Source: a virus
Lineage: Duplodnaviria > Heunggongvirae > Uroviricota > Caudoviricetes
Length of the DNA: 7,469 bases
Strand: one strand, 5' to 3'
Virus record (IMG/VR): IMGVR_UViG_2534681934_000021
Coordinates: 1-7,469 of that record
The translations under genes and the position numbers were made by a program. The notes beneath the pieces were generated by a model. That model was not told where the DNA came from. It did not search any database and worked only from the letters and a program-made list of their open reading frames with translations. Within the stretch, counting starts at the first letter, position 1. Each line of letters starts with the position of its first letter. Of the stretch, positions 980 to 7,469 are shown in pieces.

Positions 980-1136
980 CTGGATTCTCCTGTTAGTTAG
1001 CTTTGGTTGTGTGTGGGAGTCGTAGTCCTGAACGAAAACACCCCGCAATGGCACATTGGCTGCTAATCCGGATTCGCACTTCCGGCCAATGCTTCGTTTC
1101 GTATCACACACACCAAAGCCTTCTGCTTTGAATGCT

Positions 1137-1167
1137 GCCCTTCTTCAGGGCTTAATTTTTAAGAGCA
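1137..1167 (-). promoter_or_regulatory. nutL: nutL (boxB 1137-1151, boxA 1159-1167)
   Basis: The minus strand reads TGCTCTTAA...GCCCTGAAGAAGGGC, matching the lambda nutL boxB stem-loop exactly as recalled; boxA differs by one base (T for C). Confidence 0.7.
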
Positions 1168-1206
1168 TCACCTTCATGGTGGTTAGTGCGTCCTGCTGAT
1201 GTGCTT

Positions 1207-1269
1207 GGTATCACCGCTAGTGGTATTTGTGTCAACATCGCCAGAGATAATTTATCACCGCAGATGGTT
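1207..1269 (-). promoter_or_regulatory. pL promoter with operators OL1 (1209-1225), OL2 (1233-1249), OL3 (1253-1269)
   Basis: Three 17-bp operators, TATCACCGCTAGTGGTA, CAACATCGCCAGAGATA and TATCACCGCAGATGGTT, sit around -35 TTGACA (complement of 1230-1235) and -10 GATACC (complement of 1207-1212). The region is near-identical to lambda pL/OL with a few substitutions. Confidence 0.8.
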
Positions 1270-1282
1270 ATCTGTATGTTTT

Positions 1283-2158
1283 TTATATAGATTTATTTTT
1301 TGCAGGGTTGTGTGGCTTGGGAGGTGATCGAGAGATCAGAATTGCGTTGTTTAGTGAGTTGCACCTATTAATTTTAAAATAAATACAATTGCCTTTTTTT
1401 CGATCTTCCCACCAGTCAGGTGCCGGGTCTGGCTCAACATGTAAAGCATCGGCAAGTCCTGATATCAAGCTGTATGACTGAACTCCATCAATGTGCTCTG
1501 ACAGTGATGGGGTAACATTCTGTCTTAGTGGATCAAGAATAAAATCAATACCTTTAATTCTGGCGTGTTTGGCGGCAGGCACAAAGTCTGAGTCCCCAGC
1601 AACAAGGACAATTACATCAACAAGTTTTTCATAAGCTAAAGTCGTGATATCCATCCCTAGCTTGATATCAACTTGTTTTTGTTTGATGTCATAGTAAAAA
1701 TCATCATTTGTCAGTTCATCCCATTTTTTCGTTCCTTTCATCAGAGCATCAAGGGAGAATGTAGTTAGTTGCCATCGCTTATTATCAACAAGATTCCCTA
1801 ATCTTAAGGCTGTTTTTCGAGTTTTTCTTAACTCTTCATGCAGCTCCGTTCTCAGAATATATGATTTTTCGAGTTTGAAATTCTTGCGACCAGGCGTCTT
1901 ATTGCCAGGCTCAGGAAGTGGAAGGCGTGTTTGAATGTCGAGTGGTGGACAGTCATAGAAGTAAATTCTATAAAGCTCAAGCGGTTCCCTACGTTCTTGT
2001 GATTGACGTTTTCCATTAAGATGGGAAAGAACCATTGACCATATTACTTTCATTATGCATTGCGCAGTCAGTTCATGCTCGGCGAAGTGTTTACGATGCG
2101 TAGCATGAACACGCTGCATGAAAAAACCCGCATCAATTAAAATTGCTGCTTTCTTCAT
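1283..2158 (-). CDS. NYN/LabA-like (PIN-fold) nuclease-domain protein, 291 aa; a cargo gene occupying the rexA-rexB position; candidate exclusion/defence gene
   Basis: The N-terminal MKKAAILIDAGFF and C-terminal VLVAGDSDFVPAAKHARIKG motifs are typical of NYN/LabA domains, along with an internal acidic motif (VDIKLGMDI). The start ATG is at 2158. The gene lies between the cI stop (2286) and the point where lambda-like sequence resumes (~1400). The last ~38 codons read through lambda-like DNA. Confidence 0.7.
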   Translation of the reverse strand: MKKAAILIDAGFFMQRVHATHRKHFAEHELTAQCIMKVIWSMVLSHLNGKRQSQERREPLELYRIYFYDCPPLDIQTRLPLPEPGNKTPGRKNFKLEKSYILRTELHEELRKTRKTALRLGNLVDNKRWQLTTFSLDALMKGTKKWDELTNDDFYYDIKQKQVDIKLGMDITTLAYEKLVDVIVLVAGDSDFVPAAKHARIKGIDFILDPLRQNVTPSLSEHIDGVQSYSLISGLADALHVEPDPAPDWWEDRKKGNCIYFKINRCNSLNNAILISRSPPKPHNPAKNKSI

Positions 2159-2167
2159 AAGAGTCCC

Positions 2168-2227
2168 AAAAAAATAGCCCAGAGCCGTTATGCAGATATT
2201 AACAATTGTCTGCGAACGGGGCTGGGC
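2168..2227 (-). terminator. Candidate intrinsic terminator/attenuator hairpin followed by U7, immediately upstream of the NYN start codon
   Basis: On the minus-strand RNA: GCCCAG-CC-CCGUU...(inner stem GCAGA/UCUGC)...AACGG-CU-CUGGGC, then UAUUUUUUU (plus 2168-2174 is A7). The outer stem is 11 bp with a 2x2 internal loop. Confidence 0.35.
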
Positions 2228-2238
2228 TTGGTTTAATT

Positions 2239-2267
2239 AATCTATGCCAAGTTGACTGTGCCGTCAA
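2239..2267 (-). promoter_or_regulatory. Candidate sigma70 promoter between cI and the NYN gene, overlapping a perfect palindrome TTGAC-N6-GTCAA
   Basis: -35 TTGACG (complement of 2262-2267), 17-bp spacer, -10 TAGATT (complement of 2239-2244). The palindrome ttgactgtgccgtcaa is at 2252-2267. Confidence 0.25.
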
Positions 2268-2285
2268 CATAAAACTTACTTCCTA

Positions 2286-2998
<713 letters not shown>

Positions 2999-3004
2999 AC
3001 GTTA

Positions 3005-3074
3005 AATCTATCACCGCAAGGGATAAATATCTAACACCGCGCGTGTTGACTACTTTACCTCTGGCGGTGATAAT
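3005..3074. promoter_or_regulatory. Right operator region: OR3 (3009-3025), OR2 (3032-3048), OR1 (3056-3072), with divergent pRM (leftward) and pR (rightward)
   Basis: OR3 TATCACCGCAAGGGATA, OR2 TAACACCGCGCGTGTTG, OR1 TACCTCTGGCGGTGATA. pR has -35 TTGACT (3046-3051) and -10 GATAAT (3069-3074). pRM has -10 TAGATT (complement of 3005-3010) and -35 TAGATA (complement of 3028-3033). Confidence 0.85.
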
Positions 3075-3089
3075 GGTTGCATGTACTAA

Positions 3090-3302
<213 letters not shown>

Positions 3303-3305
3303 CCC

Positions 3306-3337
3306 CGCTCTTACACATTCCAGCCCTGAAAAAGGGC
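3306..3337 (+). promoter_or_regulatory. nutR: nutR (boxA CGCTCTTAC 3306-3314; boxB GCCCTGAAAAAGGGC 3323-3337)
   Basis: Both elements match the lambda nutR boxA/boxB as recalled, directly downstream of cro. Confidence 0.75.
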
Positions 3338-3399
3338 ATCCAATTAAACCACACCTATGGTGTATGCATTTATTTGCATACATTCAATCAATTGTTATC

Positions 3400-3440
3400 T
3401 AAGGAAATACTTACATATGGTTCGTGCAAACAAACGCAAC
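3400..3440 (-). promoter_or_regulatory. pRE, the CII-activated promoter for repressor establishment
   Basis: The minus strand carries the CII binding motif TTGC-N6-TTGC (TTGCGTTTGTTTGC, complement of 3426-3439) overlapping the cII start, with a -10-like AAGTAT downstream, as in lambda. Confidence 0.5.
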
Positions 3441-3710
3441 GAGGCTCTACGAATCGAGAGTGCGTTGCTTAACAAAATCGCAATGCTTGGAACTGAGAAG
3501 ACAGCGGAAGCTGTGGGAGTTGATAAGTCGCAGATCAGCAGGTGGAAGAGAGACTGGATTCCAAAGTTCTCAATGCTGCTTGCTGTTCTTGAATGGGGGG
3601 TCGTTGACGACGACATGGCTCGATTGGCGCGACAAGTTGCTGCGATTCTCACCAATAAAAAACGCCCGGCGGCAACCGAGCGTTCTGAACAAATCCAGAT
3701 GGAGTTCTGA
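3417..3710 (+). CDS. cII: CII transcriptional activator, 97 aa, apparently intact
   Basis: MVRANKRNEALRIESALLNKIAMLGTEKTAEAVGVDKSQISRWKRDWIPKF...EQIQMEF matches lambda CII. The ATG is at 3417; the ORF track's upstream start at 3357 is an in-frame extension. Confidence 0.9.
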   Translation: MVRANKRNEALRIESALLNKIAMLGTEKTAEAVGVDKSQISRWKRDWIPKFSMLLAVLEWGVVDDDMARLARQVAAILTNKKRPAATERSEQIQMEF

Positions 3711-6891: not shown

Positions 6892-7218
6892 ATGACTAAA
6901 AATACTCGTTTTTCCCCCGAAGTCCGTCAGCGGGCGATTCGTATGGTTCTGGAAAGTCAGGATGAATATGACTCACAGTGGGCGGCAATTTGTTCCATTG
7001 CCCCAAAGATTGGCTGTACGCCGGAGACTCTGCGTGTCTGGGTTCGCCAGCATGAGCGGGATACCGGGGGCGGTGATGGTGGGCTCACCAGCGCTGAACG
7101 TCAGCGTCTGAAAGAGCTGGAACGTGAAAATCGTGAACTGCGCCGCAGTAACGATATCCTTCGCCAGGCTTCCGCTTATTTTGCGAAGGCGGAGTTCGAC
7201 CGCCTCTGGAAAAAATGA
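6892..7218 (+). CDS. IS3-family transposase OrfA (helix-turn-helix / leucine-zipper part)
   Basis: [22 protein letters not shown]...[36 protein letters not shown]. It ends at an A6 run followed by TGA (7210-7218). Confidence 0.85.
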
Positions 7219-7469
7219 TGCCACTGCTGGATAAGCTGCGTGAGCAGTACGGGGTCGGACCGGTATGCAGCGAACTGCATATTGCCCCGTCAACGTATTA
7301 CCATTGTCAGCAACAGCGACATCATCCGGATAAACGCAGTGCCCGTGCGCAGCACGACGACTGGCTGAAGAGAGAGATACAGCGCGTATACGATGAAAAT
7401 CATCAGGTGTACGGTGTGCGTAAAGTCTGGCGTCAGTTGTTACGGGAAGGAATCAGGGTGGCCAGATGT
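7215..7469 (+). CDS. IS3-family transposase OrfB, N-terminal part (partial; -1 frame relative to orfA, 3' end beyond the window)
   Basis: The -1 frame is open from 7215 to the window end: [85 protein letters not shown], typical of IS3 OrfB before the DDE domain. Confidence 0.75.

What the first reader, a model, noticed from the sequence alone, without database searches (positions are those of the whole stretch)
2159..2285. Promoter-like element, perfect palindrome and terminator-like hairpin packed into the 127-bp gap between cI and the NYN gene
Seen in sequence: on the minus strand there is a -35 TTGACG / 17-bp spacer / -10 TAGATT combination (2267-2239), overlapping a perfect palindrome TTGAC-N6-GTCAA (2252-2267). 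It is followed by a long GC-rich hairpin (2177-2227) and a U7 tract (2168-2174) that ends only ~10 nt before the NYN ATG (2158). Inference: read-through from pRM/cI into the cargo gene would be attenuated, and any transcript from the local promoter begins with a terminator-like leader. That suggests tightly gated expression (attenuator, protein-bound operator or leader-dependent control), as might be expected for a potentially toxic nuclease. Alternatively the hairpin is simply the cI operon terminator and the cargo gene is silent.
Basis: partly seen in the sequence, partly recalled or inferred. Interest (0 to 1): 0.5.

Follow-up and report, generated by a model that had tools for sequence, protein, structure and literature searches.

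The report
Conserved leader hairpin-terminator of NYN nuclease cassette
The short gap after the phage repressor gene is the control region of a mobile nuclease gene: a promoter followed at once by a conserved RNA hairpin that looks like a stop signal, an arrangement kept with this gene family across distant bacteria and not yet catalogued as an RNA family.

Summary
The hairpin folds far better than shuffled sequence (z = -5.0) and the palindrome is unexpected by chance (0.01 expected).

Similarity to lambda stops exactly at the cI stop codon, so the 127-bp gap belongs to the NYN cargo gene. Relatives of that gene in about 75 distinct loci were examined, from Enterobacteria, Pseudomonas, Rhizobiaceae, Lysobacteraceae, Vibrio/Marinomonas, Pasteurellaceae and Coriobacteriia, plus loci with a Bacteroidota-type promoter. 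Nearly all carry the same layout: promoter, then within about 10 nt a 50-75 nt interrupted hairpin, a U-tract, a Shine-Dalgarno site and the ATG.

- Base pairs covary in three independent groups (12 of 17 pairs in the E. coli group).
- The hairpin is better conserved than the coding sequence.
- Nothing in Rfam 15 matches it.

Best reading: a conserved 5' leader RNA that doubles as an intrinsic terminator. It would attenuate the cassette's own promoter and transcripts arriving from pRM, and yield a ~60-nt RNA. Its conservation suggests it is also a recognition site, probably for the nuclease. No transcript ends were mapped. A role as an RNA antitoxin, like a type III toxin-antitoxin system, remains open.

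The parts
2286..2288 (-). Stop codon of lambda-type cI. This is the exact point where similarity to phage lambda ends.
   Evidence: In the alignment of the window with ev099, 2B8, E212, lambda and CL707, identity with lambda stops at TGA. ORF list.
2251..2268 (.). Dyad-symmetric element GTTGAC-N6-GTCAAC overlapping the -35 hexamer. Candidate operator; the binding protein is unknown.
   Evidence: Found once in the window against 0.01 expected. The same TTGAC-N6-GTCAA geometry, with different spacers and arms reaching beyond the hexamer, occurs in Tatumella, Yersinia, Lysobacteraceae L019 and the Pseudomonas-like L104 and L106. An N9 version occurs in L074, L075 and L082.
2262..2267 (-). -35 hexamer TTGACG of the cassette promoter.
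   Evidence: Consensus scan, 9 of 12 matches with a 17-bp spacer. TTGAC(A/G/T) is kept in most proteobacterial relatives.
2239..2244 (-). -10 hexamer TAGATT.
   Evidence: In relatives the -10 ends 8-17 nt before the first paired base of the hairpin.
2230..2233 (-). Predicted transcription start, about 7 nt after the -10 and 2-5 nt before the hairpin.
   Evidence: Inferred from promoter geometry only. Not mapped.
2176..2228 (-). 53-nt leader hairpin.
- P1: 2222-2228 with 2176-2182.
- 2x2 internal loop.
- P1b: 2215-2219 with 2185-2189.
- P2: 2209-2213 with 2192-2196.
- 12-nt apical loop CAAUUGUUAAUA: 2197-2208.
   Evidence: Fold of -25 kcal/mol, z = -4.98. Covariation: 95.5% of cells paired, 12 of 17 pairs with changes on both sides, slid controls 27-43%. 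Covariance model R1 scores 83.2 bits at 2167-2228 on the minus strand. No Rfam match.
2168..2174 (-). U7 tract, one base after P1. Together with P1 it forms an intrinsic-terminator-like end.
   Evidence: Sequence. U-rich tails follow the hairpin in most relatives.
2164..2167 (-). Shine-Dalgarno-like GGGA, 5 nt before the ATG.
   Evidence: Sequence. U-tract followed by GGA recurs in the enterobacterial relatives.
1283..2158 (-). NYN-domain nuclease ORF, 291 aa here. The first ~255 aa are identical to phage ev099 gp48. The C-terminus is replaced because of a 156-bp deletion with its junction near 1389-1391.
   Evidence: Pfam PF01936, E = 7e-9. Comparison with ev099. AlphaFold model with mean pLDDT 87; best solved-structure match is the MARF1 NYN domain. 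phrog_5783, unknown function.

Best explanation
The 127-bp gap is the 5' control region of a self-contained, horizontally mobile NYN-nuclease cassette. The cassette sits in the slot where lambda carries rexAB.

**Proposed mechanism.**
1. A sigma-70 promoter, overlapped by an operator-like dyad, starts transcription a few bases before a conserved three-helix hairpin.
2. The basal helix of that hairpin plus the U7 tract form an intrinsic terminator.
3. Most transcripts are predicted to stop there. This applies both to transcripts from the cassette promoter and to those arriving from pRM or pRE through cI.
4. The product would be a ~60-65-nt RNA. Only read-through reaches the Shine-Dalgarno site and ATG 9 nt further on.
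5. The nuclease is therefore made at a low, gated level and is insulated from the immunity transcript.

**What is shown.** The anatomy, the linkage to the NYN gene, the conservation and covariation of the structure, and the absence from Rfam.

**What is inferred.** That the promoter fires and that termination occurs. The interior of the hairpin and its apical loop are conserved more strongly than the coding sequence; from this I infer that the hairpin is also a sequence-specific recognition site. The most likely partner is the NYN nuclease, which is the only protein that travels with the hairpin, acting in feedback on its own leader.
For: **The unit belongs to the NYN gene.**
- Similarity to lambda ends at the cI stop. 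The gap is identical in phages ev099, 2B8 and E212, and the last two have a different repressor N-terminus.
- In 36 species loci and 38 distinct IMG/VR upstream regions, nearly all NYN relatives have promoter, hairpin, U-tract, Shine-Dalgarno site and ATG in that order.
- The settings differ: downstream of several repressor types, next to glmS in Proteus, beside higBA in P. aeruginosa. No second conserved protein accompanies the gene.

**The structure is under selection.**
- E. coli group: 95.5% of cells paired, 12 of 17 pairs changed on both sides, against 27-43% paired in slid controls.
- Coriobacteriia: 85.8% paired, 7 pairs changed on both sides.
- Vibrio, Pasteurellaceae and Proteus-type P1 helix: 93.8% paired, 6 of 8 pairs changed on both sides.
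- G.U outnumbers A.C by 17 to 4 on the NYN-sense strand.
- The hairpin is 83-100% identical where the coding sequence is 72-78% and the promoter region 58-68%.

**The motif is specific.**
- Model R1 scored 63-84 bits directly upstream of NYN genes on the same strand, and also on the identical NYN-less hairpin in L165; nothing else in the roughly 750 kb searched matched strongly. Lambda and CL707 gave no hit at the motif position.
- 38 of 40 IMG/VR contigs holding the hairpin core have the NYN ORF 24-29 nt downstream.

**The promoter is coupled to the hairpin.**
- The -10 ends 8-17 nt before P1 in most proteobacterial loci.
- Five loci carry a TAnnTTTG motif 12-21 nt upstream instead.

**Other points.**
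- The intact cassette in ev099 also has an ordinary short terminator after the NYN stop. The long conserved leader hairpin is therefore something extra.
- No Rfam 15 family matches, either in the window or in 11 diverse loci.
Against: - No experimental 5' or 3' ends are available. The part of the Hfq-crosslinking orphan-sRNA table for strain Sakai that I read lists nothing at this locus, and a text search of that supplement found no coordinate beginning 3018. The gap in Sakai is identical to the window.
- The promoter match alone is not above chance.
- The hairpin is long, with a 12-nt loop, which is unusual for an intrinsic terminator. The simple scan did not call it.
- In the E. coli version the antisense strand folds better (-32.7 against -25 kcal/mol). 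Across 41 hairpins the sense strand is the more stable in only 13. The strand assignment therefore rests on the U-tract, the promoter side and the G.U counts.
- One identical hairpin occurs without promoter or NYN gene, just before a tRNA-Arg gene in a late operon (L165). It can act as a generic terminator.
- Apical loops differ between groups, so recognition by the nuclease is an inference.
- Rhodanobacter-type relatives have a different leader without a clear U-tract.
- U-tracts are weak in Marinomonas and some Coriobacteriia.
Confidence: 0.6

Rival explanations
1. RNA antitoxin or decoy, in the manner of a type III toxin-antitoxin system. The abundant terminated ~60-nt hairpin RNA binds and neutralises the NYN nuclease made from rare read-through transcripts. 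When transcription is shut off, for example by an infecting phage, the RNA decays and the nuclease is freed, giving abortive infection or addiction.
For: - The order promoter, structured RNA, terminator, nuclease gene is the ToxIN layout (from my own knowledge of Fineran et al. 2009 and Blower et al. 2012).
- No protein partner travels with the NYN gene.
- The hairpin is conserved more than the coding sequence.
- The cassette occupies the rexAB exclusion slot downstream of repressors.
- The NYN gene is often truncated in E. coli prophages, as might be expected of a costly gene.
Against: - There are no tandem repeats.
- The nuclease has a NYN fold, not a ToxN fold.
- There is no evidence of toxicity or defence.
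- The distantly related NYN candidate HEC-09 gave no protection in tests (the PADLOC hit is only E = 2e-4).
- No literature links NYN proteins to an RNA partner.
Confidence: 0.2
2. A plain terminator and insulator. The hairpin simply ends the cI transcript, or any incoming transcription. The upstream promoter-like match is incidental and the cargo gene is essentially silent.
For: - The hairpin sits right after cI, and after other repressors in several phages.
- An identical hairpin alone occupies a tR'-like position before a tRNA gene in L165.
- The promoter match is not above chance on its own.
Against: - The same unit occurs where there is no repressor gene upstream, in Proteus, Pseudomonas, Yersinia, Photorhabdus and Xenorhabdus.
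- Similarity between cassettes starts about 10 nt upstream of the -35, so the promoter is part of the mobile unit.
- A promoter at a fixed short distance is kept even in the TAnnTTTG-type loci.
- Interior and loop conservation exceeds what termination needs.
Confidence: 0.08
3. A 5'-terminal processing or stabiliser hairpin. The main role is control of mRNA decay: an RNase III-type cleavage site, or a 5' stem-loop that protects the NYN mRNA. This resembles the rnc, pnp and ompA leaders. Termination would be secondary.
For: - The hairpin begins within a few nucleotides of the predicted 5' end.
- It is a ~20-bp interrupted duplex.
- It is kept even where the U-tract is weak, in Marinomonas and some Coriobacteriia.
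Against: - A U-rich tail is present in most loci.
- There is no direct evidence of cleavage.
- Conserved apical-loop bases are not expected for RNase III recognition (this point is from my own knowledge).
Confidence: 0.1
4. A trans-acting base-pairing small RNA that regulates host or phage mRNAs through its apical loop, with NYN expression only a by-product of read-through.
For: - It is compact, with a terminator hairpin and U-tail typical of small RNAs.
- Loop bases are conserved.
- EHEC prophages encode many short small RNAs (PMC4104026, PMC13502914).
Against: - It is not among the Hfq-bound orphan RNAs in the part of the Sakai table that I read.
- A target shared by Actinomycetota, the Bacteroidota-type loci and Proteobacteria is unlikely.
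- Its own mRNA shows no consistent loop pairing: complementarity to the translation start region is no better than shuffled loops in 12 of 15 loci.
- The RNA almost never occurs without the NYN gene.
Confidence: 0.05
5. A DNA-level element: a cruciform or single-strand hairpin recognised by a recombinase or replication protein and marking the cassette boundary.
For: - The antisense strand folds as well or better.
- The hairpin lies near the left edge of a mobile cassette.
- It appears alone at another site (L165).
Against: - The U-tract and the promoter are on one side only.
- G.U outnumbers A.C by 17 to 4 on the sense strand.
- No recombinase travels with the cassette.
- Cassette similarity extends upstream of the hairpin to include the promoter.
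Confidence: 0.03

Closest known systems
Intrinsic-terminator leaders (transcription attenuators) of bacterial genes, including ribonuclease genes that autoregulate through 5' leader hairpins (rnc, rne, pnp)
   Same: - A structured 5' leader lies between the promoter and the start codon.
- A GC-rich stem plus U-tract is expected to stop most transcripts.
- The gene product is itself a nuclease that could act on its own leader.
   Different: - There is no room for an antiterminator, a leader peptide or a separate aptamer, because transcription starts about 5 nt before the hairpin.
- The sensor, if there is one, must be the terminator hairpin itself.
- No Rfam family matches.
- Feedback by the NYN nuclease is not shown.
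Type III toxin-antitoxin systems (ToxIN, CptIN, TenpIN)
   Same: - The order is promoter, non-coding RNA, Rho-independent terminator, nuclease gene.
- There is a single protein gene.
- They are found on phages and mobile elements and linked to phage exclusion.
   Different: - The RNA is one hairpin, not tandem 34-45-nt repeats.
- The protein is a NYN (PIN-like) fold, not a ToxN/AbiQ fold.
- Toxicity, RNA processing and inhibition are untested.
Lambda rexAB and other cargo genes downstream of cI (the immunity-region 'moron' slot)
   Same: - It occupies the same position, immediately after the repressor gene and before oL/pL.
- It is carried by phages of lambda immunity, such as ev099.
- The intact cassette has its own promoter and a 3' terminator.
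   Different: - There is no sequence similarity to rexA, rexB or the lambda cI-rexA spacer.
- rexAB is co-transcribed with cI from pRM. Here a terminator-like hairpin separates cI from the cargo gene.
tR' and short leader RNAs of lambdoid late operons (6S RNA, StxS)
   Same: - A short RNA would be produced by a constitutive promoter followed by an early terminator.
- An identical copy of this hairpin sits in that position in one phage contig (L165).
   Different: - In the window it precedes a single cargo gene in the immunity region.
- No Q-type antiterminator is known to act on it.

Membership tests
Intrinsic (Rho-independent) terminator | GC-rich stem closed within a few nucleotides of a U-rich tract | tested here: met
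   P1 AGCCCAG/CUGGGCU is followed by A then U7. U-rich tails occur in most relatives.
Intrinsic (Rho-independent) terminator | Compact hairpin with a short loop, as required by standard scans | tested here: not met
   It is a 53-nt interrupted hairpin with a 12-nt loop. The consensus scan did not report it.
Intrinsic (Rho-independent) terminator | RNA 3' ends mapped at the U-tract | not testable with these tools
   Term-seq data exist for strain Sakai (PMC7547250), but no tables were available.
Sigma-70 promoter | -35 and -10 hexamers with a 16-18 bp spacer | tested here: met
   TTGACG-17-TAGATT, 9 of 12 matches. Comparable promoters occur at a fixed short distance from the hairpin in relatives.
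Sigma-70 promoter | Mapped primary transcription start | not testable with these tools
Type III toxin-antitoxin system | Antitoxin made of tandem direct RNA repeats | tested here: not met
   No direct or tandem repeats in 2000-2400. There is one hairpin per locus.
Type III toxin-antitoxin system | Terminator between the RNA gene and the toxin gene | tested here: met
   The hairpin and U7 end 9 nt before the ATG.
Type III toxin-antitoxin system | Toxin of the ToxN/AbiQ (or CptN, TenpN) family | tested here: not met
   Pfam NYN PF01936. The best fold match is the MARF1 NYN domain.
Type III toxin-antitoxin system | The toxin is inhibited by, and processes, its RNA | not testable with these tools
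   This needs expression and binding assays.
Any curated Rfam family (riboswitch, leader, small RNA) | Match to a covariance model | tested here: not met
   No match at E <= 1 in window 1000-3500. No match at the motif in 11 diverse loci. Only the ALIL pseudoknot reached gathering score in the whole window.
Riboswitch-type attenuator | An aptamer plus mutually exclusive terminator and antiterminator folds | tested here: not met
   The -10 ends 8-17 nt before the hairpin, so there is no upstream sequence to form an alternative fold. The minimum-energy and centroid folds are the same single hairpin.
Lambda immunity-region elements (cI-rexA spacer, rexAB) | Sequence similarity to lambda 37115-37226 and rexA | tested here: not met
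   Identity ends at the cI stop. Model R1 finds nothing in the lambda locus L003.
Phage 'moron' (autonomous cargo cassette) | Own promoter upstream and terminator downstream of an extra gene | tested here: met
   Promoter. A canonical terminator follows the NYN stop in intact ev099. That terminator is lost in the window through the 156-bp deletion.
Hfq-dependent small RNA | Hfq binding in vivo | tested here: inconclusive
   No entry near Sakai 3018xx in the part of the Hfq-crosslinking orphan table that I read, and a text search of the supplement found no coordinate beginning 3018. Expression in those conditions is unknown.

The most novel reading that the evidence does not exclude
The hairpin and the NYN protein form a previously undescribed two-part RNA-protein module, analogous to a type III toxin-antitoxin system but without repeats. 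The terminated leader RNA is the specific inhibitor, or decoy substrate, of the nuclease. The cassette would then be an exclusion or addiction system that fills the rexAB slot of lambdoid prophages and spreads across phyla. In some groups the apical loop may mimic a tRNA anticodon loop: ACGAUAA, ACUGAUAA, ACUAUAA and UUGAUAA compared with CUGAUAA in E. coli tRNA-Ile(GAU). That would hint at a tRNA-directed nuclease held in check by a mimic.
Probability: 0.2. Interest if true: 0.85.

Novelty: new member of a known kind. Interest (0 to 1): 0.6.

Why it matters
- **A candidate new RNA family.** It would add a widely distributed, covariation-supported structured RNA, absent from Rfam 15, with a clear genetic partner. 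That partner is an uncharacterised NYN nuclease family with about 4,800 sequence clusters, common in prophages.
- **Phage biology.** It shows that in some lambda-immunity phages the immunity transcript is cut off from the cargo slot. The cargo brings its own promoter, operator-like dyad and leader.
- **Relevance to E. coli.** The element is present, unannotated, in about 5% of complete E. coli genomes, including O157:H7 Sakai and EDL933.
- **If the RNA neutralises or feeds back on the nuclease,** this would be a new type of RNA-controlled nuclease module at a known phage-exclusion locus.

Tried and rejected
- **Rfam scans.** The window at E <= 1, 11 diverse loci at E <= 1, and the whole window at gathering score: nothing at the motif.
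- **Literature searches.** NYN with prophage or lambdoid, non-coding RNA or terminator, defence or abortive infection, type III toxin-antitoxin, RNA motif, and the locus tags ECs0273, ECs0274, Z0308 and Z0309: nothing relevant.
- **Hfq-crosslinking orphan table of Tree et al. 2014.** No peak at the Sakai coordinates in the part read, and a text search of the supplement found no coordinate beginning 3018.
- **HnrS, a 66-nt prophage small RNA.** Considered and rejected, because it lies in late genes of Sp9, Sp10 and Sp12.
- **Supplements of Sy et al. 2020.** Not held, so no start-site or 3'-end tables.
- **Kissing interaction between the apical loop and the NYN translation start region.** Duplex energies were no better than shuffled loops in 12 of 15 loci. 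Rejected.
- **Strand assignment from folding energy.** Inconclusive, and the antisense strand is often more stable. I relied instead on the U-tract, the promoter side and the G.U/A.C counts.
- **A DNA-binding domain in the NYN protein that could read the palindrome.** No second Pfam domain was found. Only the MARF1 NYN domain passed E <= 0.001 in the PDB fold search, and no DNA-binding fold appeared among the listed matches. A profile search against PDB sequences found nothing.
- **Dispersed repeat (REP-like).** Rejected: one copy, at most two, per genome and one per phage locus.
- **A promoter inside the hairpin, or on the plus strand using the other palindrome arm.** By reading the sequence I found no acceptable -10 or -35.
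- **Other inverted repeats in the gap** (2222-2251, and 2132-2141 with 2232-2241). They are AT-rich and are not apparent in the relatives' upstream sequences read, so I treated them as chance.
Full report
**1. Setting.**
The window is a decayed lambdoid prophage. It is nearly identical to Sp1 (CP-933H) of E. coli O157:H7 Sakai, which is inserted at thrW.
- On the minus strand lie an integrase gene (1-975), a NYN-domain ORF (1283-2158) and a lambda-type cI (2286-2998).
- On the plus strand follow cro, cII, fragments of O and P, tail-fibre genes and an IS3-family element.
- The finding concerns the 127 bp between the cI stop and the NYN ATG (2159-2285).

**2.
- On the minus strand the gap reads: TGA (cI stop)..., GTTGACGGCACAGTCAAC..., TAGATT, AATTAAACCA, a 53-nt hairpin, A, U7, GGGACUCUU, AUG.
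- The promoter scan reports TTGACG-17-TAGATT with 9 of 12 matches. Matches of that quality are not rare: 2 were found against 5.1 expected.
- The palindrome TTGAC-N6-GTCAA occurs once, against 0.01 expected.
- The hairpin folds at -25 kcal/mol, z = -4.98, with no shuffle as good.
- There are no direct or tandem repeats, and no credible small ORF.

**3. The gap belongs to the cargo gene, not to lambda.**
- In an alignment with lambda, CL707, ev099, 2B8 and E212, identity with lambda ends exactly at the cI stop codon.
- The whole gap plus the NYN gene is identical in ev099, which has lambda immunity. It is also identical in 2B8 and E212, whose repressors differ in the N-terminal part.
- Among more distant cassettes, similarity begins about 10 nt upstream of the -35. 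The promoter is therefore part of the mobile unit.
- In intact ev099 the NYN stop is followed by an ordinary 8-bp terminator. The cassette is thus promoter, leader hairpin, NYN gene, terminator.
- In the window a 156-bp deletion has removed the last ~30 codons and that terminator.

**4. The arrangement is conserved with the gene family.**
- The NYN protein belongs to a large uncharacterised family. There are 4,788 clusters at E <= 1e-5. It matches phrog_5783, of unknown function, and 526 stretches in IMG/VR.
- An AlphaFold model (mean pLDDT 87) is most similar to the MARF1 NYN RNase domain and shows no extra DNA-binding domain.
- I read the upstream regions of 36 species-level loci and 38 distinct IMG/VR loci.
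- Nearly all show a promoter, then a long interrupted hairpin, then a U-rich tail, a Shine-Dalgarno site and the start codon. The hairpin has a GC-rich basal helix of 5-10 bp, internal loops and an apical helix.
- The taxa include Tatumella, Yersinia, Photorhabdus, Xenorhabdus, Proteus, Pseudomonas, Rhizobiaceae, Lysobacteraceae, Methylococcaceae, Moraxella, Vibrio, Marinomonas, Pasteurellaceae and Coriobacteriia.
- A further group of viral contigs carries TAnnTTTG in place of the sigma-70 hexamers. I recognise that motif from my own knowledge as the Bacteroidota -7 element.
- In most proteobacterial loci the best sigma-70 promoter ends 8-17 nt before the first paired base. The RNA would therefore start at the foot of the hairpin.
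- Exceptions are the chromosomal Rhodanobacter-type genes and one Enorma locus, which have other leaders.
- The surroundings vary: downstream of at least five different S24-type repressors, beside glmS in Proteus, next to higBA in P. aeruginosa, and elsewhere. No second protein is conserved with the gene.

**5. The structure is under selection.**
- A nearly gapless alignment of 16 distinct hairpins of the E. coli type supports the three-helix fold. 95.5% of cells are paired, and 12 of 17 pairs have changes on both sides. When the 3' partner is slid, only 27-43% are paired.
- Two other groups give the same picture: Coriobacteriia with 85.8% paired and 7 pairs changed on both sides, and the Vibrio/Pasteurellaceae/Proteus-type basal helix with 93.8% paired and 6 of 8 pairs changed on both sides.
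- Within the defined pairs, G.U outnumbers A.C by 17 to 4 on the NYN-sense strand.
- Among enterobacterial cassettes the hairpin is 83-100% identical. The first 690 nt of the gene are 72-78% identical and the promoter region 58-68%.
- Several apical-loop bases are invariant.
- A covariance model built from this alignment scores 63-84 bits directly upstream of NYN genes on the same strand, and on the lone hairpin in L165. There is one hit per locus, in about 750 kb of phage and bacterial DNA. The lambda and CL707 loci gave no hit at the motif position.
- An exact-pattern scan of IMG/VR found the hairpin core in 40 contigs. In 38 of them the NYN ORF starts 24-29 nt downstream.
- In complete E. 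coli genomes the element occurs once (at most twice) in 274 of 5,426 genomes, and is never annotated.
- No Rfam 15 family matches it in the window or in 11 diverse loci. Full-text searches found no description of an RNA associated with NYN genes.

**6. How it most likely works.**
- *Shown:* the anatomy, the linkage, the covariation and the extra sequence conservation.
- *Inferred from established knowledge of intrinsic termination:* P1 plus U7 would release most transcripts 9 nt before the ATG.
- Because the predicted start lies 2-5 nt before P1, there is no room for an antiterminator, a leader peptide or a separate aptamer. Any regulation must act on the hairpin itself or on the promoter.
- Transcripts from pRM or pRE that run through cI meet the same signal. 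The cargo gene is therefore uncoupled from the immunity transcript, unlike rexAB in lambda.
- The output would be an abundant ~60-65-nt RNA and a trickle of NYN mRNA.
- A simple terminator does not need a conserved interior and loop, so I infer a specific binding partner. The only co-inherited candidate is the NYN nuclease, through feedback on or cleavage of its own leader, as the rnc, rne and pnp leaders do for their nucleases.
- A stronger version is that the free RNA inhibits the nuclease, in the manner of a type III toxin-antitoxin system. The layout fits, but two defining features of known type III systems fail: tandem repeats and a ToxN-type toxin.
- The dyad GTTGAC-N6-GTCAAC over the -35 recurs with unrelated spacers in Tatumella, Yersinia, a Lysobacteraceae genome and Pseudomonas-like contigs, with arms that extend beyond the hexamer. 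An N9 form occurs in another group. That is the signature of an operator for a dimeric protein, but I could not identify the protein. The dyad is absent from many groups.

**7. Points against, and open questions.**
- No transcript ends are available.
- For the E. coli sequence the antisense strand folds better (-32.7 kcal/mol). Across 41 hairpins the sense strand is more stable in only 13.
- One contig (L165) carries the identical hairpin without promoter, dyad or NYN gene. It lies 6 nt before a tRNA-Arg(UCU) gene, between a promoter-like site after a 207-aa ORF and the lysis genes. That is the place of a late-operon terminator. The hairpin can therefore serve as a free-standing terminator module.
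- Pairing between the apical loop and the NYN start region was tested and is not supported.

**8. Comparison and novelty.**
- It works like a leader attenuator. It resembles type III toxin-antitoxin loci in layout, lambda rexAB in position, and tR'-type early terminators in product.
- It is not a member of any curated RNA family tested.
- I file it as a new member of a known kind: a conserved leader terminator RNA with a defined gene partner.
- There is about a one-in-five chance that it is something less ordinary, an RNA-protein nuclease module.

**9. The test is cheap.**

Noticed in passing
window 2825-2998 and 2286-2879 (minus strand); site at 2922: The lambda-type cI gene is split into two overlapping ORFs by the loss of one T in a T-run, relative to O157:H7 Sakai, where cI is intact. 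The repressor is therefore a pseudogene in this window.
   Followed up: yes
window ~1389-1391 (junction): A 156-bp deletion relative to phage ev099 removes the last ~30 codons of the NYN gene, its stop codon and the canonical terminator behind it. The ORF now runs on towards the oL/pL region. Sakai has a different, larger deletion (window 1391-1810 is missing there), which leaves the 129-aa ECs_0273.
   Followed up: yes
L165 3565-3617 (IMGVR_UViG_3300011920_000033): A 58-nt stretch identical to the window's hairpin occurs without promoter, palindrome or NYN gene. It lies 6 nt upstream of a tRNA-Arg(UCU) gene, between a promoter-like site following a 207-aa ORF and the holin and lysozyme genes. 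That is a tR'-like position.
   Followed up: partly
L122 2861-3718; L121 5424-5813; L150, L152, L155, L163, L170: The NYN gene is often broken in E. coli prophages, either split into two ORFs or truncated at ~129 aa, and once deleted internally. The leader hairpin stays intact in all of them.
   Followed up: partly
Apical loops of L021-L028, L033, L034-L039, L111-L119; L171 82-158: In the Coriobacteriia, Vibrio/Marinomonas and TAnnTTTG-type leaders the apical loop ends in (G/U/A)AUAA. Examples are ACGAUAA, ACUGAUAA, ACUAUAA and UUGAUAA. This resembles the anticodon loop CUGAUAA of E. coli tRNA-Ile(GAU). The E. coli-type loop (CAAUUGUUAAUA) does not share it. The resemblance may be coincidence.
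   Followed up: partly
window 2166-2232, plus strand: The antisense strand of the hairpin folds more stably than the sense strand (-32.7 against -25 kcal/mol). C.A oppositions flanking P2 on the sense strand become G.U pairs on the other strand. C21.A32 alternates with U.G and A-U in relatives.
   Followed up: partly
L010 2057-2246 (minus strand): In a Pseudomonas arsenicoxydans prophage the NYN cassette lies about 250 nt from a C4 antisense RNA (80.5 bits) and its a1/b1 targets, which make up a P1/P7-type immunity region. This is another case of the cassette sitting next to immunity functions.
   Followed up: no
L123-L126 4001-4795: In Proteus the NYN gene with its leader is a single-gene island between an ABC transporter operon and the 3' end of glmS, the side where Tn7-like elements insert.
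   Followed up: no
window 7173-7289 (plus strand): An ALIL pseudoknot (RF01497, 121.5 bits), the frameshift signal of the IS3-family element at the right end of the window.
   Followed up: no
window ~1207-1235 (minus strand): The lambda pL promoter (TTGACA-17-GATACT in ev099, mapped by offset) survives just downstream of the truncated NYN ORF. The N gene behind it is mostly missing, and the integrase gene follows directly.
   Followed up: partly
window 2245-2249 with 2227-2231, and 2132-2141 with 2232-2241: Two further AT-rich inverted repeats bracket the -10 and start region. They are not apparent in the relatives' upstream sequences read and were treated as chance.
   Followed up: partly
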